A DNA stretch of 64,000 bases, taken from sequence record MK327941.1; one strand, given 5' to 3'. The position numbers and the translations under genes were made by a program. Positions 1 to 29,062 of this stretch are shown one piece after another. Each line of letters begins with the position of its first letter. Position 1 is the stretch's first letter. This DNA is from Escherichia phage vB_EcoM_G37-3. The notes beneath the pieces are model-generated. The model saw only the letters and a list, made by a program, of their open reading frames with translations. It did no database searches and was not told the origin of the DNA.

Positions 1-657
1 CTTCGCCAAATTTAACCATTGTCAGGCCGTAACGACTACTAAACAGACGTTTCAACTGTCCAACGATTTTAGAATCAGTGGTTATAATTTCCAATTCTTC
101 TACTTCACGAAAGAATTTTCTATCAGAATCAATAAACCAGCTAGTTCCTTTATGGTCTCTATCTTCGGTTGCGCTCATTAGAGTATGGTCTTTACCATCA
201 ATTTCAATTACATCAATTTGCCCACATGGACTAACATTTTTAACAGTAAAAGGTCTATAATTTATTGCTCGTGCAATAACATAATTAAGGTTAGATACGT
301 TTTCAGCATAATGGCAGAAGTCGGTCATAGCATTCGCATCTTTCCAAGTATAAGTTTTACCAACTTCCCATTTCTGGGGAACTTCTTCAACTTCACGAAA
401 GAATTTTCTATCGAATGGACTAAAGAAATATGTTGCAGTCCAAATGTCTTTTCCTGTAGCAGTTTTCGCCGTATGATAAACACCGTCTAGCTCTATTGCA
501 TTAATCCAACCGTTACCCTCGATCTCGATGATGGTAAATGGCTTGTCACCAATAGCTGCACTAATATCGCTGTTAAGTGGAGAAAGAACACCTTCTCCGT
601 TAGTAATAAACTCAGTTTTAGCGTTTTCATCTTTCCAGGTGTAAGTTTTACCAATTT
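1..657 (-). CDS. Partial ORF (C-terminus beyond window edge), KTYK/FFREV paralog family with two internal repeat units
   Basis: ATG at 655-657 on minus strand (MKWEIGKTYTWKD...), open to window edge; motifs KWE-GKTYTWKD and DRKFFREVEE each occur twice in the translation. Confidence 0.5.
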
Positions 658-679
658 CCCATTTCATAATATATTCCCC

Positions 680-1180
680 TTAACCGATTTTATCAAGTTC
701 GTTTAATGCTTTCTCTGCTTCCTGTATAGCTTGCACTCTTTCCGGCATTTTGTCAAGAAAATCTTTCAACTCTTCAAAACTGGAGATATGACGCAAGGCA
801 TTAGCACCGATAGCCGCATGTGATTTGCATTCAAAGCGGATTTTATAATTATCCATAGCCAATTTGAGAAGGTCTATTAGATCATATTCATGACCAGGCA
901 ATAAAACTTCTTTGAAGCACGCTCGGTCGCCATCGGAAAACCATATATTATCACCAACATCGATAGAACTAATATAATCCCCTTCGTGATTATAGATTGA
1001 ACGTACATTACCCCAACGGTCTACCGTAGCGACAGTAAATGGTTTATCTAGATATGTAAACACACCATCAATATTAGGTTTTTGTTCGTAACGCCAACAA
1101 TCACGCAAAATGCGCTTTTCGTCCTCACCAACCAACTTATATGTCTTCCCTTCTTCCCATTTCATAATATCATCTCTCAT
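680..1180 (-). CDS. Hypothetical protein, KTYK/FFREV paralog family
   Basis: 166-aa ORF starting MKWEEGKTYKL; shares N-terminal and DR-x-FKEV motifs with neighbouring ORFs. Confidence 0.55.
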   Translation of the reverse strand: MRDDIMKWEEGKTYKLVGEDEKRILRDCWRYEQKPNIDGVFTYLDKPFTVATVDRWGNVRSIYNHEGDYISSIDVGDNIWFSDGDRACFKEVLLPGHEYDLIDLLKLAMDNYKIRFECKSHAAIGANALRHISSFEELKDFLDKMPERVQAIQEAEKALNELDKIG

Positions 1181-1704
1181 TTTTGATACGTGATTCTAAT
1201 TGGATCATACGGTCGCGCGTTTGCTTGTATTCTCGAATAGCACCGATCCGGCTAGGCATACCATCAAGCACGCTCTTAATCCCTTCTATGGTAGTGATTT
1301 TAGCAATGCTATTATGTAACCCCATCTTATCGATCAACTGAATGTCGTAGGCTTCCATAAGCAGACCCAGACGTTCTAAAGTTAGGTCTTCTTTTTTCTT
1401 CCGATTCTGGAATCTTAGGTTCAATAGTAACTTCGGTAAAGAAACGGCGCTCACCTGACCAAAACCACACACCGGAACAACCAATAGGGGATTCTTTTAG
1501 CGTCATAGAGTCGTAACCACTGCCGATAATAGTAATTTCTCTAACATCACCATCATCGTCAATGTCTTCTACCATAAAAGGGCGACCAGCCAACAAGTCA
1601 ACAATACATCTGTTAATAGACGACGAAAATTTAGTCAGTTCGGCTTTCGACGCTTCGCATTCAATCTTGTAAGTTTTACCAACTTCCCATTCCATAATAA
1701 TCAC
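1170..1704 (-). pseudogene. Frameshifted member of KTYK/FFREV paralog family (two overlapping ORFs 1327-1704 and 1170-1484)
   Basis: N-terminal part MEWEVGKTYKI in one frame, paralog-like C-terminal part (DGMPSRIGAIREYK) in another; frames switch at homopolymer run 1392-1397. Confidence 0.45.
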
Positions 1705-1705
1705 C

Positions 1706-2209
1706 TCAAATAATTTTCACTGGAATACTATTAACAATCTTGTATTGTACTTGATTGTCAGACCCCCGCCACGGCTTCTTCGTTGGCATATCTTTAATAT
1801 AACGACCATCGATGAACATGTCAACTGATTCTACAATTTTTCTTTGCTCATCATTCAATTGGTCAAGGGTATAACCGGACCATAGCCAAATATCTTTATT
1901 TGGCATCCATGATTTTACTTCATCGATGATCCGCTGTACACCCTTTAAATTGCGTTTATACAGTGGATCGCCACCTAAGAATGTTAGCCCCTGAATAAAA
2001 TCAGGTCTAAGCAGATCCAGAATCAATCCCATTGTATCATCGGTGAATGGTTCCCCGTTCTTAGGATTGAGTATGCTAGCATTAAAGCAACCATCACATG
2101 CGTGTGAACATCCGGTAACGTAAAGGGAGACTCTCACTCCCTCACCGTTAACCATATCACAATCTTTAATATCGGCATAGCGTAGTTTGCCGTATGTATC
2201 AGAACTCAT
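1706..2209 (-). CDS. nrdG: Anaerobic ribonucleotide reductase activating protein NrdG (radical SAM)
   Basis: Translation aligns closely with E. coli/T4 NrdG (VNGEGVRVSLYVTGCSHACDGCFN, GGDPL, IWLWSGY, WRGSDNQ); ATG at 2207-2209, track start 2215 is TTG. Confidence 0.9.
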   Translation of the reverse strand: MSSDTYGKLRYADIKDCDMVNGEGVRVSLYVTGCSHACDGCFNASILNPKNGEPFTDDTMGLILDLLRPDFIQGLTFLGGDPLYKRNLKGVQRIIDEVKSWMPNKDIWLWSGYTLDQLNDEQRKIVESVDMFIDGRYIKDMPTKKPWRGSDNQVQYKIVNSIPVKII

Positions 2210-2215
2210 ATTCAA

Positions 2216-2353
2216 TTACCCCGAACTCGTTTACAATCTGCGCTTTATAGTAACCACCGCGAGATGCCAATAGATAAGCTGGGCTTAGGTATTCGTATTC
2301 ACGGATTTCTACTTGTGCGTTTTCAGTTTCCCAAATCAGTAAAGTCCACATAT
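2216..2353 (-). CDS. Small ORF (about 45 aa) missed by the 60-aa ORF track
   Basis: ATG about 2351-2353 preceded by strong RBS AGGAGA and a PeSL-type promoter; MWTLLIWETENAQVEIREYEY... Confidence 0.3.
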
Positions 2354-2393
2354 TTGATTCTCCTGTAAAGTTGTATCTCGTCTTGATGAATAT

Positions 2394-2422
2394 AGTATAG
2401 GGGATCTCGCGATCCCCGTCAA
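2394..2422 (-). promoter_or_regulatory. Early sigma70-type promoter with spacer palindrome (PeSL-like)
   Basis: Minus strand: TTGACG, palindrome GGGGATCGCGAGATCCCC in spacer, -10 TATACT, then leader and AGGAGA RBS. Confidence 0.55.
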
Positions 2423-2431
2423 GCGTTTATT

Positions 2432-2974
2432 TTAATTTTTTCGAATGTATTCAGACCATTCCTTCCCTGTCAGTTCGGTCCCATTCTGGAAACTGAAATA
2501 TTCATACGGCATCGAGTCAAGATAAAACAGGATCATACATCGCGCCATATAATACCAATCACGATTAAAGTAAACTACGTTATCACCATTACCATCAGCA
2601 CCTTTATCATAACCATCGCGGGTACGGGCAACCCATTGAATAGTATCATTTTTCTCACGGATAATAACAGGTTCCCAATATCCAGCACATCCAGCATGAC
2701 CACACGAACAAGTAAGGAAATATTGACCTTTTGCTTTGTTGTCATCCCATTCACGATGGATTGGTTCGATCTCGTGAAACAATGCCAAGCAATCATGATT
2801 ATGCAACACTGGCTTACCATCAATCAATGCATGGAATGTATACAAACGACCAGTAGACAGATAGCTATCCTCACGCTCAACCAGTTCAATAGCAATCTTT
2901 TTAGCTCGTTCTTTGTGTCGTTGTGCTTTACGCTTACGGTTTAATGATTTCATATTCACCCCACACATTATCAA
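2432..2974 (-). CDS. Hypothetical protein (180 aa)
   Basis: Minus-strand ORF in gene chain, start overlaps stop of upstream gene (ATGA). Confidence 0.5.
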   Translation of the reverse strand: MIMCGVNMKSLNRKRKAQRHKERAKKIAIELVEREDSYLSTGRLYTFHALIDGKPVLHNHDCLALFHEIEPIHREWDDNKAKGQYFLTCSCGHAGCAGYWEPVIIREKNDTIQWVARTRDGYDKGADGNGDNVVYFNRDWYYMARCMILFYLDSMPYEYFSFQNGTELTGKEWSEYIRKN

Positions 2975-3510
2975 AGGTCGCGATATAGTACATTATGAAA
3001 ATGAGAACTTGCATTACCAATATTGTAGATAATAAATTCTTCATCCGGCGCTTGCGCTACAAATTGAGTATGAGCAACCGCCACAACCTTAAAAATACGA
3101 TCCGTGATCTTGTGTTTAATTTCTGCCCCTACTTCCATAGGAACATATTCATTTGTTTCTGTTTCAGTCGCAAAACAGCCATCTTCTTCATAAGCACGAA
3201 TAAATCGGTCGCAATCAGTACGCTTAACAAATTCAAGAGTATATAATTCTCGTGAATTGTCGGTATAGACCAATACAGAATTATTATGATAGCGAATCAC
3301 ATACAGGTTATTATCATCGTCAATTACGCAAAAGCTACGGATTCCTTCGCCTTGACTCCAGCAGATATTAACCACCGTTCCTCTAATAAAAAAACTTTCC
3401 TTTAAATTAAAACTAGCCAATGTGCTAGCGTGCATTTTAACAACAACACCATCACCAATTTCCAGTTTACGAAGTTTAACTTCTTTGCTCAGTACACAAA
3501 ACATCATCAT
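2971..3510 (-). CDS. Hypothetical protein (179 aa)
   Basis: ORF starting MMMFCVLSKE with RBS GAGGA upstream and PeSL-type promoter. Confidence 0.5.
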   Translation of the reverse strand: MMMFCVLSKEVKLRKLEIGDGVVVKMHASTLASFNLKESFFIRGTVVNICWSQGEGIRSFCVIDDDNNLYVIRYHNNSVLVYTDNSRELYTLEFVKRTDCDRFIRAYEEDGCFATETETNEYVPMEVGAEIKHKITDRIFKVVAVAHTQFVAQAPDEEFIIYNIGNASSHFHNVLYRDL

Positions 3511-3539
3511 GTTGTCCTCTCGTTGTTTTCGATGTGAGC

Positions 3540-3567
3540 ATTATACATTAGCTAATCATGTTGTCAA
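3540..3567 (-). promoter_or_regulatory. Early sigma70-type promoter
   Basis: Minus strand TTGACA, 16-nt spacer, TATAAT, followed by conserved leader and RBS. Confidence 0.55.
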
Positions 3568-3576
3568 CACCCCAAA

Positions 3577-3606
3577 ACGAAAAAGCCGACCCTTTCGGAT
3601 CGGCTG
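3577..3606 (-). terminator. Rho-independent terminator downstream of nrdD
   Basis: Minus strand hairpin AGCCGATCC-GAAA-GGGTCGGCT followed by T-rich run. Confidence 0.6.
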
Positions 3607-3610
3607 AAAT

Positions 3611-5473
3611 TTACATGTGCTTAACGCGGTTTACCATCTCGGAGTGTTTCCCGTGGTTGAATGGACGCAGATCAACAGATCCAAGATATCCACTAACGCG
3701 ACGGATAACATTCATCTTTTCCAGATTGTCATTACCGCAATCAGGACAAACAAAACCAGACTCGGTCGCTCTCATTTCCTTAGTGGATCCGCATACATGA
3801 CATACATCAGAAGGAGTATTAACACCGAAGTAGTGCAATTTATCCATTGCATAGTCTACTACAGTTTCAAGACCTTTCAGGTTGTTTTTCATGTCTGGGA
3901 ACTCAACATAAGAGATCATGCCACCGGACGCCAGCCAGTGATAATCTTTCTCAAAGTCGATTTTCTCAAATGGAGTGACTTTCCGGTCTACGTCAAGATG
4001 GAATGAGTTGGTGTACCAGTCTTTATCGGTAGCACCCTTAACAATACCAAATTGCTCTCGGTCCAGTCGATTAAATCGATAGCAAAGGCTCTCGGCTGGC
4101 GTACCGTAAAGACTAAACCCAAGTCCGGTTTCATCCTTCCATTTTTCAGTATAATGACGCAAGATCTTAAGAATATGTTTACCGTATCGCTGCGCATCTT
4201 CCGAATCAAACGGATGAACATCAAACAGGACGCTCAATACCTCATGTAAACCAATATATCCAAGAGAGATACTAGCGCGACCATCTTTCAGAACTTCCAA
4301 AATTTCATCGTTTTGATGAATACGGAAAAATGCACCTTCTGTATACAGTACAGGAGCAACATTGGCTTTAGCCCCTTTTAAAGCGTCTACGCGACTCATG
4401 AGCGCATCAAAGCAAATAGGCATACGATTAGCTAGCTCTTGTTCGAATAGCTCAATTCTGCGCATTACAGACGCTTTACCAGCACGACGCGCGGCAATAA
4501 GGGCAATACGCGGAAGATTTAGAGTCACAACACCTAAGTTATTACGTCCGTCTAATACTTCTTCGCCTTTCTCATTATGCCACACACCCAGGAAGCTACG
4601 ACAACCCATCGGGCTAACCGGAACACTAGATCCGGTGATACTACGGTTATTCTTCGCAGAGATATAATCAGGGTAAAGACGCTTACTCGAACATTCCAAT
4701 GCAAGTTGCTTAATGTCGTAGTTCGGATCTTCCGGTTTAAGGTTTAATCCTTCTTCTAAGAACATCACCAGCTTAGGAAACACCGGAGTGATACCATCTT
4801 TACCTAAACCTTTAGTTCGAACGTTCAGGATCGCTTTCTGAATCAGTTTTTCTTCCCAGCTAGTACCCATACCAAAGGTTAAAGTCACAAAAGGCGTTTG
4901 ACCGTTGGTGGAGAACAAAGTGTTGATTTCATATTCCAACGCTTGATACCCGTCTAAAGTTTCTTTTTCTGTCTTCTCTTGTGCATAGAGAGTATCAGCT
5001 TTGATTCCGTAGGTTTCGGCATCAGCAAGGTGTTTATGATATGTTTTCTCAACATACGGTGCTAACACCTGATCGATGTTTGCGATTGTGGTCCCGCCAT
5101 ATTGATGACTTGCCACCTGTGCGATAATTTGAGCGGTTACAGCACAAGCAACGCCGATTGATTTCGGACTTTCGATTTGTGCGCTACCCAATTTAAAACC
5201 ATTCTCTAACATGTCTTTTAGATTAACAAGACAGCAGTTAGTAAACGGCATAGCGGGTGCATAATCCATATCATGATAATGAATATCACCGTCTACATGC
5301 GCTTTATAGATGTGCTCAGGTAACACGGTTTTAGCAATCTGTTTAGACACAGCACCAGCAATCAGATCTCGACGTGTCGGGAATGTTCGCGCGTCTTTGT
5401 TCGCGTTCTCTTTGCTTACTTCGTTTTCTTTACCCGTTGCGATCTCTGTAATGTCTTTGATTAGTTTTTCCAT
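3611..5473 (-). CDS. nrdD: Anaerobic ribonucleoside-triphosphate reductase NrdD (glycyl radical enzyme), uninterrupted
   Basis: 620-aa ORF collinear with T4 NrdD (FPTRRDLIAGAVSK, PFTNCCLVNLKDMLENGFKLG, C-terminal Cys cluster CHVCGS...CPDCG). Confidence 0.95.
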   Translation of the reverse strand: MEKLIKDITEIATGKENEVSKENANKDARTFPTRRDLIAGAVSKQIAKTVLPEHIYKAHVDGDIHYHDMDYAPAMPFTNCCLVNLKDMLENGFKLGSAQIESPKSIGVACAVTAQIIAQVASHQYGGTTIANIDQVLAPYVEKTYHKHLADAETYGIKADTLYAQEKTEKETLDGYQALEYEINTLFSTNGQTPFVTLTFGMGTSWEEKLIQKAILNVRTKGLGKDGITPVFPKLVMFLEEGLNLKPEDPNYDIKQLALECSSKRLYPDYISAKNNRSITGSSVPVSPMGCRSFLGVWHNEKGEEVLDGRNNLGVVTLNLPRIALIAARRAGKASVMRRIELFEQELANRMPICFDALMSRVDALKGAKANVAPVLYTEGAFFRIHQNDEILEVLKDGRASISLGYIGLHEVLSVLFDVHPFDSEDAQRYGKHILKILRHYTEKWKDETGLGFSLYGTPAESLCYRFNRLDREQFGIVKGATDKDWYTNSFHLDVDRKVTPFEKIDFEKDYHWLASGGMISYVEFPDMKNNLKGLETVVDYAMDKLHYFGVNTPSDVCHVCGSTKEMRATESGFVCPDCGNDNLEKMNVIRRVSGYLGSVDLRPFNHGKHSEMVNRVKHM

Positions 5474-5486
5474 TGTATCACCTATG

Positions 5487-5512
5487 AAAAAGCGGGATTT
5501 TCTCCCGCTCGT
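5487..5512 (-). terminator. Rho-independent terminator
   Basis: Minus strand hairpin GCGGGAGAAAATCCCGC followed by TTTTT. Confidence 0.5.
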
Positions 5513-5518
5513 TGATAG

Positions 5519-6013
5519 TTATTTTACCAGTTCTGCTAATTCTTTTTCCGCCGATTCCAGTTCAGCCTTAAGCTGTTTAATCTCTTGTCGCTTCTTATTA
5601 GCGGCTTCCTGCTTACTATTTCGGATAACCTGATCTAGATACAACTCCCAATCCTGAATATTTTTGATAATGTAACCGTCAACATTAATTGGTCGGAGAT
5701 TCAGTAAAGCTTCCAGTTTAGTCGCAAAAACTTTAATTGCTGGTGTGAAGTATTCATATTCGTTATCTTCAAACCAATAACCTAGACTTGCATTATCAAT
5801 ACGAAGACGAAGTTCAAGATCAAGGTCTTTATCTTCGGTGTAAAGATCTTTCACCTGACCCAGCGAACTAACAACAACTTTAAAACGAATTTTATCTACA
5901 CCACCAAACACATCAGTAAGTATACCAGCAATTGAGCTATTAGCGCAAGATTGGTCGCTGAATGCGTCAAGGTTTTCTTTAGTTACAGTATACCAAACAT
6001 CTTGTACCCACAT
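5519..6013 (-). CDS. Hypothetical protein with C-terminal coiled coil (164 aa)
   Basis: ORF with ATG at 6011-6013, RBS GAGGAT. Confidence 0.5.
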   Translation of the reverse strand: MWVQDVWYTVTKENLDAFSDQSCANSSIAGILTDVFGGVDKIRFKVVVSSLGQVKDLYTEDKDLDLELRLRIDNASLGYWFEDNEYEYFTPAIKVFATKLEALLNLRPINVDGYIIKNIQDWELYLDQVIRNSKQEAANKKRQEIKQLKAELESAEKELAELVK

Positions 6014-6043
6014 AATATAATCCTCTCGTTGTTAAGTGGGAGT

Positions 6044-6071
6044 ATTATAGCATACTCCCTTCGCATGTCAA
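6044..6071 (-). promoter_or_regulatory. Early promoter with palindrome around -10 (PeSL-like)
   Basis: Minus strand TTGACA, spacer, TATAAT embedded in inverted repeat GGGAGTA...TACTCCC. Confidence 0.55.
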
Positions 6072-7246
6072 GCACTAACTTTTTTCTTTACTGCTTTCAC
6101 CTTCTGGCGAATTGCTCGAATCTCTTCGATCTCTTTTTCAGTATCTTTAACAATTTCTTTGCGATTCTGAATATCTTTATCGAGATTATCATCAAGTTTA
6201 GGCAGCATGTCAATCAAGAACTTTTTAAAGTCTTTCAGGTTTCGGATAACAGCACCTTCACCCATTACCGCCACGCCTACACCATCCGGCAGGTCGCCAA
6301 ACAGTTTAACCAGTTCAGACAGATGATCATGATCTTCTAGTGCTTCTTCCGGTTCAGATGGCAGTTCCACAAAGTAATAACGTTCATCATTGCTGATCAG
6401 GTGATACCAGCAAAGCCCAAAAGATTTAGGAGTATATTCTACACCACCAACTTCAACTGCGTCAACACTTCCGAAAGAATCTACTTTAGTTACCTTAAAT
6501 CCATGTTCCAGCGTTTTAATAATTTCAATAACATGACTGGATACGGTTTCAGTATTAAACCAATGAGGCAAATTATGTGGATTTGGCTTGTATCGTTCGC
6601 CTACTTTAAATCTCTGACCACGCTCTTGCATACGGACATATTCAACTCGCGTGATTTCCGCGAAGTATTCAAATTCGCCACCGTCAAACACAGAAGCCCA
6701 TTGATCACAAAAACGATCTGCCTTAACAGTTTCACCTTTCGCGGTGATCATGGTAGCTGATCCGTGCAATTCTTCTTCAACTAAAAAGCCATATTCGACA
6801 AAATCAACAAGTTTCATAGCTTCTTTGTGATCTGGATCATGCTCTCCCCAGAATCGCTTAAATTCTTGCAAACCTTCTGGGGTAAACGAATAACATTTAC
6901 CTTTTTCAAAGTAAGTCGGCATTGCATCCTCTTTCTTGTTCATCGCTTCGTATGCCTCTTTTGAGATGCGTTTAAAGTATTTACGCTCATTGTGCATAAT
7001 CATAGTAGCCCAATAATCAACAATATCATTAGCGGAATAAACTACATCTCCAGCTTCAATAGTAATAACATGACCGTGGTCATCTTTTTCTAATACTTTA
7101 AAGCCCTTTTCTACGATTTCAGCAACACGAATATGACCACGGCGCGAAGCATCGGTCAGAATAATTGAATAGCGAGAAAAGTCTAGAAACTCATCTTTAC
7201 CGCCTTCACGGAATGCATAGTAATGACCTTCAAAGAATTTAGCCAT
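6068..7246 (-). CDS. Hypothetical protein, KTYK/GFKV/ERKYF paralog family, three internal repeat units (392 aa)
   Basis: Repeated GFKV-x-VD-x-G and ERKYFKR motifs shared with ORFs 7303-7887 and 7884-8156. Confidence 0.55.
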   Translation of the reverse strand: MAKFFEGHYYAFREGGKDEFLDFSRYSIILTDASRRGHIRVAEIVEKGFKVLEKDDHGHVITIEAGDVVYSANDIVDYWATMIMHNERKYFKRISKEAYEAMNKKEDAMPTYFEKGKCYSFTPEGLQEFKRFWGEHDPDHKEAMKLVDFVEYGFLVEEELHGSATMITAKGETVKADRFCDQWASVFDGGEFEYFAEITRVEYVRMQERGQRFKVGERYKPNPHNLPHWFNTETVSSHVIEIIKTLEHGFKVTKVDSFGSVDAVEVGGVEYTPKSFGLCWYHLISNDERYYFVELPSEPEEALEDHDHLSELVKLFGDLPDGVGVAVMGEGAVIRNLKDFKKFLIDMLPKLDDNLDKDIQNRKEIVKDTEKEIEEIRAIRQKVKAVKKKVSA

Positions 7247-7276
7247 AATATAATCCTCTCGTTGTTTAGATGGGAG

Positions 7277-7305
7277 TATCTTACTACTCCCGTTTCATCA
7301 TGTCA
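7277..7305 (-). promoter_or_regulatory. Early promoter with palindrome around -10 (PeSL-like)
   Basis: Minus strand TTGACA, 17-nt spacer, TAAGAT within GGGAGTAG...ACTCCC inverted repeat. Confidence 0.55.
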
Positions 7306-7887
7306 AGCGTTAAATGACTTTTGGATCTCTTTCAGTTCAGCTACTTTATCGGCGCTATATTTTGCTTGATGTTCCATGCGCTTAAGCTCACCTTTGATAT
7401 AGGTTTCTAGCTTAGGTTTATTCTCAATCAGAAAATCTTTCAAGTCATCGGCATTTTTAAAGTATAGCTGATTATCAAAGCTAAAATCTTCCAGCGTCAA
7501 TGATACCAAAGAAGACTTCGCAAACAAGTTAATCAGATCTTCCAGAGATTCTTCTTTCTTAATTGGTTTCATTTCTTCAAACTGCTTTTTAGTGATGCGT
7601 TTAAAGTATTTTCGCTCGTTTGCAGCAATCAGAACAGATGCACCTTCATACTCATGAGTTTCTACCAGATACACACGCCCCATCGCATCAACAGTGAGAA
7701 CTTTAAAGCCGTTACAAAGCACGTCATACAAGAACTTATTATGTTGCGGACATCGTTTGATAAATTCTGCGACTGTTTCTGCACTACGGAAAGTATAGTA
7801 ACGACCTCGTTCAAAAACAGCGTCATTGGGTGACTTAACCGAATATACTTTGTATGTTTTCTGTACCATAATATAATCCTCTATCAT
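7303..7887 (-). CDS. Hypothetical protein, same paralog family (194 aa)
   Basis: Contains NERKYFKRITKKQFEEM and GFKVLTVD motifs; C-terminal LKDFL-x-KPKL motif as in ORF 680-1180. Confidence 0.55.
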   Translation of the reverse strand: MIEDYIMVQKTYKVYSVKSPNDAVFERGRYYTFRSAETVAEFIKRCPQHNKFLYDVLCNGFKVLTVDAMGRVYLVETHEYEGASVLIAANERKYFKRITKKQFEEMKPIKKEESLEDLINLFAKSSLVSLTLEDFSFDNQLYFKNADDLKDFLIENKPKLETYIKGELKRMEHQAKYSADKVAELKEIQKSFNA

Positions 7888-8156
7888 TTCACTAATTGAA
7901 CAGCACGGAACAGAATGCGGTCACACGGAAGCAGCATAAATTCCCAACGCGGATCAAAGTCTTTAGCGGTATATGTTTTCCCATCAACCGAGATTTCACT
8001 TACATAACCAATAGGTGACACTTTAAGAACAGTAAATCCATTCTTGATGACTTCGTAGGTATCTTTCAATCCTTCGTAGTCATCCTCTAGGAAGTCTTTA
8101 CGTGCTTGCTCAGATTTAAAAACATAGGCCACACCGGATTTAAACATCTTACGCAT
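7884..8156 (-). CDS. Hypothetical protein, short member of same paralog family (90 aa)
   Basis: GVAYVFKSEQARKDF and NGFTVLKV motifs. Confidence 0.5.
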   Translation of the reverse strand: MRKMFKSGVAYVFKSEQARKDFLEDDYEGLKDTYEVIKNGFTVLKVSPIGYVSEISVDGKTYTAKDFDPRWEFMLLPCDRILFRAVQLVK

Positions 8157-8187
8157 TGTTGATTCTCCTTCTTGATTAGATGGGAGT

Positions 8188-8216
8188 ATTTTACTACTCC
8201 CATTTCATGTTGTCAA
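8188..8216 (-). promoter_or_regulatory. Early promoter with palindrome around -10 (PeSL-like)
   Basis: Minus strand TTGACA, 17-nt spacer, TAAAAT within GGGAGTAG...ACTCCC inverted repeat. Confidence 0.55.
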
Positions 8217-11766: not shown

Positions 11767-12045
11767 TTACATGTCTTGCAGTGCATAAAAGCATTTTTCT
11801 TCATAGTCATAGAAAATGTCAAAGTATGCTTTTTCTACATACTCACCATTGATCCAAGCGGCAGTAACAATCAGAGTGGTCCAGTTCGATCCGCTCTCAA
11901 CGGTAAAGGTTTTAATACCCAGCTTCGCTGCCAAGTCGAACGCAAACCGGACGCAACCACGGCAGGAAGTGATATTTGAAGTTTTGATTTTAAAGCCACC
12001 GCGAGTTTTGGTAATTTCTACTTTAGCGAAAGACAGGTTGCTCAT
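11767..12045 (-). CDS. Hypothetical protein (92 aa)
   Basis: ATG 12043-12045 preceded by RBS AAGGAGAATCAA and PeSL-type promoter. Confidence 0.5.
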   Translation of the reverse strand: MSNLSFAKVEITKTRGGFKIKTSNITSCRGCVRFAFDLAAKLGIKTFTVESGSNWTTLIVTAAWINGEYVEKAYFDIFYDYEEKCFYALQDM

Positions 12046-19759: not shown

Positions 19760-20095
19760 TTATCCTTTCTTAAACAAATTGCGAATCCAGTATACAAACG
19801 GGATTTCTTTAAACTTGAACTTGTCAATAGTTAATTCTTTAGTAGCAAGATGAATACCATAAGCATCATGTGTCACGATATGCCATTTTCTATAGTCCAA
19901 ATGTGAACAACCGTCTGGATCTAGGTTAATAAGAGTTTCTCGCTCACTAGGATTATTTTTCCACAATTTTGTAATAGGATCGCACATAATTCGACCTAGC
20001 GTACCATGAATAATCTCACAACGGTAAAGTTTTCCAGCAGTGAGATAGGCGCACCCGTCATAGTCTGTATAAACAAACACTTCTTTAACACTCAT
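19760..20095 (-). CDS. Hypothetical protein, GC(S/A)HLD small-protein family
   Basis: Probable start MSVKEVFVYTDYDGCAYL with RBS and PeSL-type promoter; motif DPDGCSHLD. Confidence 0.45.
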   Translation of the reverse strand: MSVKEVFVYTDYDGCAYLTAGKLYRCEIIHGTLGRIMCDPITKLWKNNPSERETLINLDPDGCSHLDYRKWHIVTHDAYGIHLATKELTIDKFKFKEIPFVYWIRNLFKKG

Positions 20096-20123
20096 TTTAA
20101 TACTCCTTTGTTTCGATGGGGGT

Positions 20124-20152
20124 ATATTACTACCCCCGTTTTGTTGTGTCAA
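20124..20152 (-). promoter_or_regulatory. Early promoter with palindrome around -10 (PeSL-like)
   Basis: Minus strand TTGACA, 17-nt spacer, TAATAT within GGGGGTAG...ACCCCC inverted repeat. Confidence 0.55.
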
Positions 20153-20413
20153 CTACTTTTTCAAGATTTTTTTAATTGCGTTCCAAAGACCTTTATTCTC
20201 AGGTTGTTTTGGTTCTTCGATCAGTGTCCAGGTTCGACCGTCTAAGTGTGCACAATTTTTAAGACAAATAAAAATCTGGTGTCCTTTATCATCACGGATA
20301 TAACCACTATTCGCAAATCTTTCATGTGGTGTATATTCATACAGTGTATTTGGTGTAATATACTTGCGGTTACTATAAGGTGTCATCACATACATCATGG
20401 TACTAACTCCCAT
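20153..20413 (-). CDS. Hypothetical protein, GC(S/A)HLD family
   Basis: Motif NCAHLDGRTW shared with neighbours. Confidence 0.4.
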   Translation of the reverse strand: MGVSTMMYVMTPYSNRKYITPNTLYEYTPHERFANSGYIRDDKGHQIFICLKNCAHLDGRTWTLIEEPKQPENKGLWNAIKKILKK

Positions 20414-24491: not shown

Positions 24492-24830
24492 TCACACCTT
24501 TAAAGTCATAGACGCATAAACATTAATGCCAGGCCAGTTAGGATCGCAATTATACTCAACATCCCACAAATAAAGCGGTTTAGATGTATCAGCCAAGTTT
24601 TTAAAATCTTCTACCCACATTTCAAGGCTATATGATGGATAAACTAGGCTATCATATCCGCCGTAACGTTGGCCTACTGGTCGGTCAGTAAAAACTACCT
24701 CAAGATCCGGTAATTCTTTTTCAAGGATAACCGCCAGCGCATAAATCAGACGGTCTTCCTTGTTACGCTGCCGAAGGACCGTTGTCAATTGGTTTTTCTG
24801 GTTCACTAGCAAGCACCTACACATTTTCAC
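24492..24830 (-). CDS. Hypothetical protein (112 aa)
   Basis: ORF in gene chain. Confidence 0.45.
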   Translation of the reverse strand: MKMCRCLLVNQKNQLTTVLRQRNKEDRLIYALAVILEKELPDLEVVFTDRPVGQRYGGYDSLVYPSYSLEMWVEDFKNLADTSKPLYLWDVEYNCDPNWPGINVYASMTLKV

Positions 24831-25083
24831 AGAATGAAATTTTCACAGACACAATTTTACCATAAGTGAAGAATGAATATACATTATCGAGATATTCAAC
24901 GTCACCTACAATCACATCAAACTGCGGATCAGCCACTGCCGCAACATATTCTACCAGTTCATCAAGAGAATGCAACTTAATTTCATCAATTCGGCTGTAT
25001 TTGGTTGCATCTTTGATTTTAAAACCACGTTCTTTCAGCTTATCAATCAGAATTTCACGCGGAGTTTCAAACAGTTTGCTCAT
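24817..25083 (-). CDS. Hypothetical protein (88 aa)
   Basis: ATG with RBS GAGGAT. Confidence 0.45.
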   Translation of the reverse strand: MSKLFETPREILIDKLKERGFKIKDATKYSRIDEIKLHSLDELVEYVAAVADPQFDVIVGDVEYLDNVYSFFTYGKIVSVKISFCENV

Positions 25084-25104
25084 AATATAATCCTCACATT
25101 AAAT

Positions 25105-28552: not shown

Positions 28553-28583
28553 TTTGATTCTCCTTTCGTTTGTTTGTGGGGGT

Positions 28584-28612
28584 ATCTTACTACCCCCGTT
28601 TCATGTTGTCAA
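28584..28612 (-). promoter_or_regulatory. Early promoter with palindrome around -10 (PeSL-like)
   Basis: Minus strand TTGACA, 17-nt spacer, TAAGAT within GGGGGTAG...ACCCCC inverted repeat. Confidence 0.55.
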
Positions 28613-28618
28613 CTATTT

Positions 28619-28991
28619 TTAAGAATATTTTACTTCGTCTACAATATCTTTCATGACATTGATTTCCATTCCGGTCAGAACACGTTGGAACATGTGCTGC
28701 ACATACGCTTTCAGGTATTCATTTGATGGCTTGCTATCGAAAGTCTTTTTAGTGTAGTAGTCATCACCGAAAGCTACTGTAATTACATTTTCGTCGTCGT
28801 TCCAAGCGATATAAGCAAATTTGCCGTTATCCCAGAAGCGAGCACTAATTGCTACTTTTGTTGAATCGAATCCTACTTCGCTGTGAGATTCAAGAACTAC
28901 TTGCGTGCCAGTTTCTTTATGAATGTAGTAGCGGGATACTAAGTCAAAGTTACGGGTGTAGTGACATTCAAATTTATCTTTAAACATCATC
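28619..28991 (-). CDS. Hypothetical protein (about 124 aa)
   Basis: Probable ATG at MMMFKDKFECHY with RBS AGGAGAATCAAA; track start 29062 lies in promoter. Confidence 0.45.
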
Positions 28992-29030
28992 ATTTTGATT
29001 CTCCTAAGTGTGTTTCGTTTCGATATGTGC

Positions 29031-29059
29031 ATTATGCTATAGTCGTTTATGGTTGTCAA
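29031..29059 (-). promoter_or_regulatory. Early sigma70-type promoter (PeSL-like cassette)
   Basis: Minus strand TTGACA, 17-nt spacer, CATAAT, conserved leader. Confidence 0.5.
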
Positions 29060-29062
29060 CAC

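What the first reader, a model, noticed from the sequence alone, without database searches (positions are those of the whole stretch)
1..8156. Expanded paralog family (at least six genes, nine or more domain copies) flanking the anaerobic RNR locus
ORFs 1-657, 680-1180, 1170-1704, 6068-7246, 7303-7887 and 7884-8156 share a repeat unit of roughly 90-100 aa. Its marks are an N-terminal (K/E)WE-x-GKTYK or QKTYK motif, a central (F)TV-x-VD-x-G-x-V block, and a C-terminal (D/E)R(K/A)(F/Y)F(K/R)(E/R)(V/I) motif. Several members carry two or three tandem copies, and some end with LKDFL-x-(M/N)P(E/K). The genes sit on both sides of nrdG-nrdD, and three of them each have their own PeSL-type promoter with the GGGAGTA...TACTCCC palindrome variant. 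This looks like a recently amplified gene-plus-promoter module of unknown function.
Basis: seen in the sequence. Interest (0 to 1): 0.65.

Follow-up and report, generated by a model that had tools for sequence, protein, structure and literature searches.

The report
Expanded GoF/Frd.2 barrel-protein family
The repeated genes around the anaerobic ribonucleotide reductase genes of this RB49-like coliphage are real paralogs, but they belong to the already described T4 GoF/Frd.2 family of small beta-barrel early proteins. The family is unusually expanded here, and its domains are swapped between related phages.

Summary
The window is a Krischvirus (RB49/Phi1-like T4-type coliphage). It holds seven family genes with ten copies of a ~90-aa unit, not six genes with nine. 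The missed member is ORF 5519-6013. Two more members lie outside the window, giving 9 genes and 12 units per genome.

The unit is not a new domain. A profile built only from the window's units finds T4 GoF (E 7e-8) and T4 Frd.2 (E 4e-5). AlphaFold models give the same five-stranded SH3/LSm-like barrel published for GoF/Frd.2/MotB.1 in 2025. The function of that family is still unknown.

"Recently amplified gene-plus-promoter module" is not supported:
- Units are only 22-51% identical.
- All paralogs sit at fixed positions in every relative checked.
- Four of them have no promoter cassette.
- Near-identical PeSL cassettes precede unrelated genes elsewhere in the window.

One thing is new. In the eight other Krischvirus genomes compared, the only divergent blocks in this 8.8-kb locus are individual domains of these proteins. 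Most are barrels. The flanks are 97-100% identical, which indicates domain-level allele exchange.

The most likely role is that of early, dimeric host-takeover proteins whose barrels recognise an RNA or a host factor of RNA metabolism. This is inferred, not shown.

The parts
1..667 (-). o049 homolog (Phi1 ORF049). It has two tandem barrel units (unit 1 at 380-667, unit 2 at 92-379) and the start of its C-terminal domain (1-91). The gene is cut by the window edge and is 274 aa in relatives.
   Evidence: Translation. HMM domain E-values 3e-26 and 3e-25. Full-length protein taken from GEC-3S.
680..1165 (-). o050: one barrel (890-1165) plus a C-terminal alpha/beta and long-helix domain (680-889, containing ELKDFLDKMPE).
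   Evidence: HMM E 2e-21. AlphaFold2 model with pLDDT 81.6, about 90 in the barrel. The barrel is replaced by a 42%-identical allele in Phi1/RB49/Brandy while the C-terminal domain stays 100% identical.
1170..1695 (-). o051: one barrel (1420-1695) plus a C-terminal domain. In this window it is interrupted by a 2-bp deletion between 1393 and 1394, so it reads as two overlapping ORFs (1327-1695 and 1170-1484).
   Evidence: Alignment to GEC-3S and to seven genomes. HMM E 1e-25.
It has one barrel (5732-6013) and a helical C-terminal domain (5519-5731).
   Evidence: Leave-out HMM E 2.4e-6, aligned over profile positions 2-83. PHROG 3710/5804 hits shared with the other members. pVOG VOG4723 is shared with o051 and o058 in the phage kvi annotation.
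6068..7246 (-). o058, annotated 'frd.2' / 'goF mRNA metabolism modulator' in RefSeq. It has three tandem barrels (6959-7246, 6647-6922, 6356-6619) plus a C-terminal domain with a ~55-residue helix (6068-6355).
   Evidence: Three HMM domains at 1e-18, 3e-16 and 4e-19. The AlphaFold2 model shows the same strand/helix pattern three times, then H302-317 and H337-391.
7303..7869 (-). o059: a 17-residue N-terminal extension, one barrel (7588-7818) and a C-terminal domain (7303-7587, containing DLKDFLIENKPK).
   Evidence: HMM E 3e-17. BLASTP to o058 at 7e-8. The barrel and the C-terminal domain each have two allele classes, found in all four combinations among nine genomes.
7884..8156 (-). o060: a solo barrel of 90 aa with no C-terminal domain.
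   Evidence: HMM E 4e-22. phrog_16115 plus cross-hits to phrog_5347 and phrog_622.
8182..8216 (-). PeSL cassette upstream of o060-o059. TTGACA, 17 nt, TAAAAT, with the GGGAGTA/TACTCCC stem-loop enclosing the -10 box.
   Evidence: Annotated as a promoter in GEC-3S.
7272..7306 (-). PeSL cassette upstream of o058. TTGACA, 17 nt, TAAGAT, with the same stem-loop.
6038..6071 (-). PeSL cassette upstream of o057. TTGACA, 16 nt, TATAAT (12 of 12 consensus matches), with the same stem arms.
   Evidence: Annotated as a promoter in GEC-3S.
5487..5509 (-). Intrinsic terminator after o057: AGCGGGA...TCCCGCT followed by TTTT. It separates o057 from nrdD.
   Evidence: Sequence. Annotated as a terminator in GEC-3S and G5211.
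1706..5473 (-). Intervening genes that are not family members: nrdG (1706-2215), o053/DUF7170 (2199-2351), o054 (2432-2974), o055 (2971-3510) and nrdD (3611-5473).
   Evidence: None gives a significant barrel-HMM hit.

Best explanation
The locus carries seven members of the T4 GoF/Frd.2 family of phage early proteins (nine per genome).

Architecture. Each protein is modular. It has one to three ~90-residue SH3/LSm-like five-stranded beta-barrels with two helices inserted after strand 1. In all members except o060 this is followed by a small alpha/beta element and a long helix that probably makes a coiled-coil dimer.

Expression. The genes are read from sigma-70-type early promoters. Three use their own PeSL cassettes. 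The others are read as part of the o053-nrdG-...-nrdH operon.

Proposed mechanism. The barrel is the recognition module and the C-terminal domain is the constant oligomerisation part. Within the genus the barrels, and in o059 also the C-terminal domain, exist as deeply diverged alleles that are exchanged by homologous recombination in the near-identical flanks. Related phages therefore carry different barrel repertoires. By homology with GoF, the most likely activity is post-transcriptional: binding an RNA, or a host factor of RNA decay or termination, early in infection to tune mRNA fate.

Shown here: paralogy, family membership, predicted fold, architecture, promoter and terminator consensus, and the allelic mosaic.

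Inferred: early timing, dimerisation, and the RNA-metabolism role.
For: Family membership. A profile made only from the nine window units finds T4 GoF at E 7e-8 and T4 Frd.2 at E 4e-5, both end to end. A broader profile that contains no GoF sequence gives GoF 3e-14. PHROG cross-hits include three 'goF' families.

Spread. BFVD gives 50 viral matches at E<=1e-3, and all that carry a name are 'uncharacterized' (or 'Dc2') phage proteins, mostly of T4-like phages.

Early promoters. There are consensus sigma-70 sites with PeSL stem-loops. PeSL promoter and terminator activity was shown experimentally in Phi1 (PMC2839356).

Recognition-module idea. Invariant residues are core aromatics (Y9, F43, F84) and G52. 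The only low-identity blocks in 8.8 kb across the other Krischvirus genomes coincide with these domains. Examples are the o050 barrel at 32-57% nucleotide identity, the o057 barrel at 53-65% and the o059 C-terminal domain at about 60%, against flanks of 97-100%. In these barrels dS is 0.36-0.49 against 0.05-0.07 in nrdD, nrdG and gp49, and dN/dS is 0.3-0.5 against 0.03-0.1. The o059 domains occur in all four allele combinations.

RNA link. GoF(D25Y) stabilises a reporter mRNA carrying the T4 gene 41 5' untranslated region. GoF and MotB.1 run partly as dimers (PMC12152347). frd.2 was the only unknown-function 'Fit' gene in a T4 CRISPRi-ART screen (PMC11879866).
Against: - No wild-type member of the family has a demonstrated activity. 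Wild-type GoF and MotB.1 had little effect on the reporter, and GoF pull-downs recovered only GoF (PMC12152347).
- Most barrels here are acidic (pI 4.3-5.3), which is unusual for RNA-binding LSm proteins.
- The C-terminal domains of the two subgroups are not demonstrably homologous by sequence.
- Inter-domain packing in the o058 model is unreliable (pTM 0.38).
- Early timing rests on consensus promoters only.
- The mosaic analysis used the window plus eight of the 58 available genomes.
Confidence: 0.55

Rival explanations
1. The proteins are protein-binding adaptors or decoys in a phage-host arms race, such as inhibitors of host defence systems or of other host proteins. The SH3/Tudor/KOW-like barrel would bind a host protein rather than RNA, for instance competing with NusG-KOW-type or Tudor-type domains for Rho or RNA polymerase. 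The allelic barrel repertoire would track variable host targets.
For: - Domain-restricted allelic diversity with raised dN/dS is typical of interaction surfaces under diversifying or balancing selection.
- The barrels are acidic.
- goF alleles were isolated as suppressors of host rho mutations (PMC12152347).
- The genes are dispensable in the laboratory, as accessory anti-host genes usually are (PMC12152347).
- Frameshifted variants exist in this window and in metagenomes.
Against: - GoF pull-downs found no host partner (PMC12152347).
- No test on a host carrying a defence system is available.
- The PADLOC library was not searched, and it holds models of defence proteins, not of anti-defence proteins.
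Confidence: 0.3
2. The paralogs are accessory factors of the anaerobic ribonucleotide reductase. They would act as chaperones or regulators of NrdD, NrdG or NrdH, which would explain why they flank and are co-transcribed with these genes.
For: o048-o051 lie between nrdG and nrdH with gaps of 2-12 nt or overlaps, so they are in the same operon. o057-o060 lie just upstream of nrdD.
Against: [quoted passage not shown]
- A ninth Krischvirus member, Dc2, sits next to gene 41.
- o057 is separated from nrdD by an intrinsic terminator.
- The nrdD region is a known plastic, PeSL-rich region (PMC2839356), so co-location is explained by insertion tolerance.
Confidence: 0.05
3. One reading: a recent amplification of a gene-plus-PeSL-promoter module.
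For: Three members carry nearly identical PeSL cassettes and 5' leaders. The two units of o049 are the closest pair at 51% amino-acid identity, and a single-unit o049 variant exists in metagenomes (P0035).
Against: - Unit identities are 22-51%, with no long nucleotide similarity.
- Positions are fixed in all relatives examined.
- Four of the seven in-window members lack a PeSL.
- Sister PeSLs drive unrelated genes.
- The family is spread through T4-like phages of many hosts, so the duplications are old.
Confidence: 0.04

Closest known systems
T4 GoF (ComC-alpha), 141 aa
   Same: The N-terminal barrel is homologous (E 7e-8 with a window-only profile and 3e-14 with the wider profile). It shares the motif pattern K-F/W-E-x-x-K-x-Y ... 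F-K/T-I/V ... G ... F-F-x-E-V. It is an acidic early protein with a barrel followed by a linker and a C-terminal domain.
   Different: GoF has a single barrel and a short C-terminal domain without the long helix. It lies between 39.2 and cef in T4, a position that is empty in Krischvirus. The position of the G84R suppressor is already K or R in five of the eleven Krischvirus units aligned (ten in the window plus o048). No functional data exist for the Krischvirus proteins.
T4 Frd.2 (Pfam PF03197 FRD2), 128 aa
   Same: The barrel is homologous (E 4e-5 with the window-only profile; BLASTP of Frd.2 against o058 unit 3 gives 6e-6). GenBank and RefSeq label o058 'frd.2'.
   Different: None of the window proteins reaches Pfam FRD2, even at E<=1, whereas T4 Frd.2 scores 5e-39. 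o058 has three barrels plus a coiled-coil tail (392 aa) and is not syntenic with T4 frd.2, which lies next to frd and gene 32.
T4 MotB.1
   Same: It is placed in the same structural family by PMC12152347. It gives a weak hit to the broad barrel profile (E 1.3e-3, full length).
   Different: It is not detected by the window-only profile (E 0.49). The relation is therefore only marginally supported here.
FeoA / SH3-like, Tudor and KOW small beta-barrels
   Different: There is no sequence relation. The scores are low and Foldseek E is >= 0.1. The two helices inserted between strands 1 and 2 are specific to the phage family.
PeSL cassettes of RB49/Phi1 (Arbiol et al. 2010; Comeau et al. 2014)
   Same: The three palindromes are PeSLs of the described subclass in which the stem-loop overlaps the -10 box, followed by a Shine-Dalgarno sequence and a start codon (PMC2839356).
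   Different: Nothing differs in kind. The GGGAGTA stem is a local variant of the GGGGGTA stem used elsewhere in the window, differing by one compensatory pair.

Membership tests
GoF/Frd.2/MotB.1 'LSm-like fold' family (Kim et al. 2025, PMC12152347) | Sequence homology of the N-terminal domain to T4 GoF and T4 Frd.2 | tested here: met
   The window-only profile gives GoF E 7e-8 and Frd.2 E 4e-5, both full length, in a database of 2,390 segments. The wider profile, which contains no GoF, gives GoF 3e-14.
GoF/Frd.2/MotB.1 'LSm-like fold' family (Kim et al. 2025, PMC12152347) | Predicted bent five-stranded antiparallel beta-sheet (small barrel) in the N-terminal half | tested here: met
   The o050 model has strands 8-11, 43-48, 54-58, 64-66 and 84-87 at pLDDT of about 90. 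The pattern repeats three times in o058.
GoF/Frd.2/MotB.1 'LSm-like fold' family (Kim et al. 2025, PMC12152347) | Nearest solved folds are FeoA-type SH3-like barrels | tested here: met
GoF/Frd.2/MotB.1 'LSm-like fold' family (Kim et al. 2025, PMC12152347) | Barrel joined by a linker to a variable C-terminal domain | tested here: met
   The variations here are 1-3 barrels, a long terminal helix, and o060, which has no C-terminal domain.
GoF/Frd.2/MotB.1 'LSm-like fold' family (Kim et al. 2025, PMC12152347) | Homology to MotB.1 | tested here: inconclusive
   E 1.3e-3 with the broad profile and E 0.49 with the window-only profile.
GoF/Frd.2/MotB.1 'LSm-like fold' family (Kim et al. 2025, PMC12152347) | Early (prereplicative) expression | not testable with these tools
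   Only consensus sigma-70 promoters and PeSLs are available. There are no expression data.
GoF/Frd.2/MotB.1 'LSm-like fold' family (Kim et al. 2025, PMC12152347) | Effect on mRNA stability (shown only for the GoF D25Y mutant) | not testable with these tools
   This needs a reporter or half-life assay.
Pfam FRD2 (PF03197) | Score above the Pfam gathering threshold | tested here: not met
   None of the ten locus proteins hits FRD2 at E<=1. T4 Frd.2 scores 133 bits.
Canonical Sm/LSm/Hfq proteins | Closest structural similarity to Sm or Hfq chains, and ring-forming Sm1/Sm2 motifs | tested here: not met
PeSL regulatory cassette (Arbiol et al. 2010, PMC2839356) | Sigma-70 consensus -35 and -10 boxes with a stable stem-loop overlapping or adjacent, in an intergenic position, followed by a Shine-Dalgarno sequence and a start codon | tested here: met
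   Three sites have 10-12 of 12 consensus matches, a 7-8-bp stem enclosing the -10 box, and predicted folding energies of -14 to -15 kcal/mol.
PeSL regulatory cassette (Arbiol et al. 2010, PMC2839356) | Promoter and terminator activity | not testable with these tools
   Shown for other PeSLs of Phi1 in PMC2839356, but not for these three.

The most novel reading that the evidence does not exclude
The barrels are hypervariable target-recognition cassettes, and the Krischvirus genus keeps several deep allelic lineages of each barrel. These lineages are reshuffled domain by domain between co-infecting phages, using the near-identical flanks and the conserved unit-boundary motifs as crossover sites. 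Each phage thus carries a personalised panel of up to 12 barrels on dimerising scaffolds, directed at variable host RNAs or host proteins. A dimer of the three-barrel o058 would display six barrels, an Hfq-like number. This would make the GoF family a diversifying host-interaction system rather than a set of housekeeping early genes.
Probability: 0.25. Interest if true: 0.6.

Novelty: new member of a known kind. Interest (0 to 1): 0.38.

Why it matters
The function of GoF has been an open question in T4 biology for decades, and the family was recognised as a structural family only in 2025. RB49-like phages turn out to carry the largest set seen here. They have nine genes and twelve barrels, against the three members reported for T4 in that paper (the T4 genome was not scanned here). 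This includes the only three-barrel protein among 1.84 billion cluster representatives searched.

These phages also provide natural allele swaps that change only the barrel while the rest of the protein and the genome stay almost identical. That is a ready-made experimental series for asking what the barrel recognises.

For annotation, five of the seven in-window genes are still labelled 'hypothetical protein' and can now be assigned to the family.

Tried and rejected
- Pfam and NCBIfam scans of all locus proteins gave no family apart from DUF7170 for o053.
- tblastn of o058 against 50,697 phage genomes found only Krischvirus, so single-sequence searches do not reach T4.
- The afdb50 fold library was not available.
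- The word-indexed database search returned only 32 hits.
- The exhaustive profile search gave only 50 clusters. The long multi-stretch proteins in that list (800-4000 aa, matching only profile columns ~30-75) were judged spurious from the match pattern alone; their sequences were not examined.
- A C-terminal-domain profile from o048-o051 did not find the C-terminal domains of o057-o059 (E 5.4 for o058). A common origin of the C-terminal domains is therefore suggested only by similar predicted secondary structure.
- I considered arguing that GoF D25 is a conserved helix cap across the subgroup. The column depends on the alignment method (compare), so I dropped it.
- I tested whether divergent barrel alleles arose by gene conversion from other paralogs. 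They are closest to the barrel at the same locus (42-77% against about 30%), so this was rejected.
- Other weak barrel-HMM hits in the window are not significant: 11767-12045 (E ~3e-3), 24820-25098 and 28622-29062.
- The whole T4 genome was not scanned. The T4 count of three comes from PMC12152347.

Full report
**What the window is**

The first 8.2 kb match 58 phage records, all Krischvirus (RB49, Phi1, JSE and GEC-3S-like T4-type coliphages). The closest is vB_EcoM_G5211 at 99.7% identity. All genes of the region lie on the minus strand.

Using the ORF list and the annotation of GEC-3S and Phi1, the gene order in the direction of transcription is as follows:
- gene 49 (8708-8220)
- o060 (8156-7884)
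- o059 (7869-7303)
- o058, labelled 'frd.2' (7246-6068)
- o057 (6013-5519)
- nrdD (5473-3611)
- o055, o054, o053
- nrdG (2215-1706)
- o051 (1695-1170)
- o050 (1165-680)
- o049 (667 to below 1, cut by the window edge)

**Check of the observation**

All-against-all BLASTP shows two subgroups, {o049, o050, o051} and {o058, o059, o060}. They are linked by o049-o060 (35 bits) and o049-o058. A profile built from five units finds o058 at E 1e-11 and o059 at E 2e-5 among the 595 six-frame segments of the window, and noise begins near E 0.1. The conserved columns are a Tyr in strand 1, Phe-x-Val, a Gly and a final Phe. The two units of o049 and the three of o058 are each recovered as separate, complete profile matches.

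The paralogy and the count of nine units in six genes are therefore correct. Four details need correction:
1. ORF 5519-6013 (o057) is a seventh member. A profile that excludes it and its orthologs still finds it at E 2.4e-6 over nearly the whole unit. It also shares PHROG cross-hits and a pVOG with the others.
2. The barrel of o059 starts at residue 18. The N-terminal 'QKTYK' is not the unit motif.
3. In this window o051 is split by a 2-bp deletion that none of seven other genomes has.
4. The LKDFL motif is followed by a long helix and is not the protein end.

**Extent of the family in the genome**

I scanned the complete genome of the 99.7% relative with the barrel profile. This gave two more members outside the window. 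One is ORF048, directly downstream of o049 (E 1e-21). The other is 'Dc2', next to gene 41 (E 3e-7). Nothing was found in the other 68 kb. The total is 9 genes and 12 barrels per genome.

**What the unit is**

Pfam and NCBIfam give nothing for these proteins. PHROGs link them to each other and to three families called 'goF mRNA metabolism modulator'. RefSeq already uses that name for o058 and o059.

[quoted passage not shown] A profile made only from the nine window units finds GoF at E 7e-8 and Frd.2 at E 4e-5, both over the full unit. A broader 46-sequence profile that contains no GoF gives GoF 3e-14 and MotB.1 1.3e-3.

AlphaFold2 on o050 (pLDDT 81.6, about 90 in the barrel) gives five strands with two helices inserted after strand 1. 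These are followed by helix, hairpin, helix and a long terminal helix. The o058 model repeats the barrel pattern three times and ends in a ~55-residue helix.

**Distribution**

An exhaustive profile search of 1.84 billion cluster representatives gave only 50 clusters at E <= 1e-3. Most are proteins of 120-270 aa with the unit at the N-terminus. A few have two units. The 392-aa three-unit protein is the maximum. BFVD gives 50 viral structural matches; all that carry a name are uncharacterised (or 'Dc2') proteins, mostly of T4-like phages of Aeromonas, Acinetobacter, Proteus, Serratia, Edwardsiella, Pectobacterium and others, sometimes more than one per phage. Multi-copy occurrence is thus not confined to Krischvirus, and the duplications are old.

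**Was it a recent gene-plus-promoter amplification?**

No.
- Units are 22-51% identical in protein. Nucleotide similarity is limited to 22-47-nt stretches at the unit ends.
- Every paralog is at the same place in all eight other Krischvirus genomes compared.
- The palindrome GGGAGTA..TACTCCC occurs three times against 0.01 expected. The sites are upstream of o060, o058 and o057, each inside a sigma-70 consensus promoter with the -10 box in the loop. This is the PeSL cassette of Arbiol et al. 2010, in the subclass where the stem-loop overlaps the -10 box.
- o059 and o049-o051 have no PeSL. The latter, with o048, follow nrdG with gaps of 2-12 nt and run into nrdH.
- A sister PeSL that differs by one compensatory base pair (GGGGGTA..TACCCCC) drives unrelated small genes at 20152 and 28612.

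The PeSLs therefore reflect the general organisation of plastic regions in these phages, not co-amplification with this gene family.

**A new feature: domain-level allelic mosaic**

I aligned the 8.8-kb locus of the window with seven other Krischvirus genomes, and compared the genes with eight. The identity is 97-100% everywhere except in five sharply bounded blocks. Each block coincides with one domain of a family member:

| Domain | Window coordinates | Divergent genomes | Nucleotide identity |
|---|---|---|---|
| o050 barrel | 841-1134 | Phi1, RB49, Brandy | 32-57% (first 60-nt bin, at the block edge, about 80%) |
| o057 barrel | 5680-5976 | Whisky, Brandy | 53-67% (Whisky 82% in the first bin) |
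| part of the o058 barrels | 6517-6696 | RB49, Brandy, kvi | 78-83% |
| o059 C-terminal domain | 7356-7535 | GEC-3S, RB49, Brandy, kvi | 58-67% |
| o059 barrel | 7596-7835 | Phi1, RB49, Whisky, Brandy | 75-87% |

The barrel of o048, outside the window, behaves the same way in the per-gene comparison.

Per-domain statistics are as follows:

| Region | Mean aa identity | dS | dN/dS |
|---|---|---|---|
| Barrels of o048, o050, o057 | 70-79% (minimum 45-56%) | 0.36-0.49 | 0.31-0.48 |
| Their own C-terminal domains | 93-98% | 0.10-0.23 | 0.09-0.21 |
| nrdD, nrdG, gp49 | about 99% | 0.05-0.07 | 0.03-0.09 |

Because dS is raised together with dN, these are old allelic lineages brought in by recombination rather than fast in-place evolution. 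The divergent alleles are closest to the barrel of the same locus, not to other paralogs. In o059 the two barrel alleles and the two C-terminal-domain alleles occur in all four combinations, which is direct evidence of crossover between the domains. Nothing comparable is seen in nrdD, nrdG, o053-o055 or gene 49. I found no mention of tandem units, RB49 or Krischvirus in the 2025 family paper, and no mention of these ORFs in the PeSL paper.

**Mechanism**

The following points are shown:
- a modular protein family of one to three barrels plus a helical tail
- consensus early promoters
- one intrinsic terminator after o057
- invariant residues that are core positions
- variability concentrated in the barrels

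The following points are inferred. The barrel is the recognition module. The tail is a constant dimerisation element; GoF and MotB.1 run partly as dimers. The proteins act early in infection. The only functional lead is from T4. goF alleles D25Y and G84R suppress the growth defect on rho mutants. GoF(D25Y) stabilises a reporter RNA carrying the gene 41 5' untranslated region. Wild-type GoF does not do so, and its pull-down gave no partner. frd.2 scored as the one unknown-function fitness gene in a T4 CRISPRi-ART screen.

I therefore rank 'early modulators of RNA fate' first. I give real weight to a protein-binding, arms-race role, because most barrels are acidic (pI 4.3-5.3), because the neighbours include RNA-polymerase-binding and Rho-binding barrels, and because of the allelic diversity. 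A role tied to the anaerobic reductase is unlikely, since T4 homologs and Dc2 lie elsewhere.

**Verdict**

It is wrong on recency and on the promoter module, and the domain is not new. I file it as new members of a known kind, with two features worth recording: the largest expansion and the only three-barrel form found, and domain-restricted allele exchange within the genus. Interest is moderate.

Noticed in passing
window 1393/1394 (o051, 1170-1695, minus strand): There is a 2-bp deletion (CT) relative to seven other Krischvirus genomes, including the 99.7% relative. It frameshifts o051 after about residue 100, leaving the barrel intact and the C-terminal domain out of frame. It may be a real pseudogene or a sequencing error. 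Metagenome clusters P0036, P0038 and P0073 are other truncated or frameshifted variants of o049 and o051.
   Followed up: partly
window 20118-20152 and 28578-28612 (minus strand): These PeSL cassettes have the stem GGGGGTA/TACCCCC. They are almost identical to the three GGGAGTA/TACTCCC cassettes of the locus and differ by one compensatory base pair, which supports a selected stem. They drive unrelated small genes, one of them a 52-aa membrane protein.
   Followed up: partly
window 19760-20152 and 20153-20413 (minus strand): Two adjacent small ORFs share a Cys-x-His-Leu-Asp-(Gly/Tyr)-Arg-x-Trp motif. They look like another small paralog pair.
   Followed up: no
window 11767-12045 (minus strand): This 92-aa ORF gives a weak hit to the barrel profile (E about 3e-3; '..IKTFTVESG...EEKCFYAL'). 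It could be a remote family member, but the hit is not significant.
   Followed up: partly
L005 13293-13943 (G5211; 'Dc2' of RB49), outside the window: A ninth family member (E 3e-7) lies immediately upstream of gene 41. This is the gene whose mRNA level is affected by the T4 GoF(D25Y) mutant. The adjacency may be coincidental.
   Followed up: partly
L005 32141-32641 (G5211 ORF048), just left of window position 1: An eighth family member (E 1e-21) lies directly downstream of o049 and overlaps nrdH by 4 nt. Four paralogs thus fill the space between nrdG and nrdH, a space that by recollection from the T4 map (not checked here) does not exist in T4.
   Followed up: yes
L005 6425-7268 (G5211) compared with T4 (L003 1703-4909): In Krischvirus, gene 39.2 is followed directly by dexA. 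The T4 block goF-cef-motB-motB.1-motB.2 is absent at the syntenic site, so the family members here are not positional orthologs of T4 goF or motB.1.
   Followed up: partly
window 2199-2351 (minus strand): o053 is a 50-aa DUF7170 protein (Pfam E 7e-18) that overlaps the start of nrdG. It has its own PeSL with the stem GGGGATC/GATCCCC at 2394-2422.
   Followed up: no
L001 12013-12768 (GEC-3S) and L011 5090-5845 (phiS): An HNH homing-endonuclease gene lies between nrdC and dam in GEC-3S and phiS. It is absent from the window and from RB49, Phi1 and G5211.
   Followed up: no
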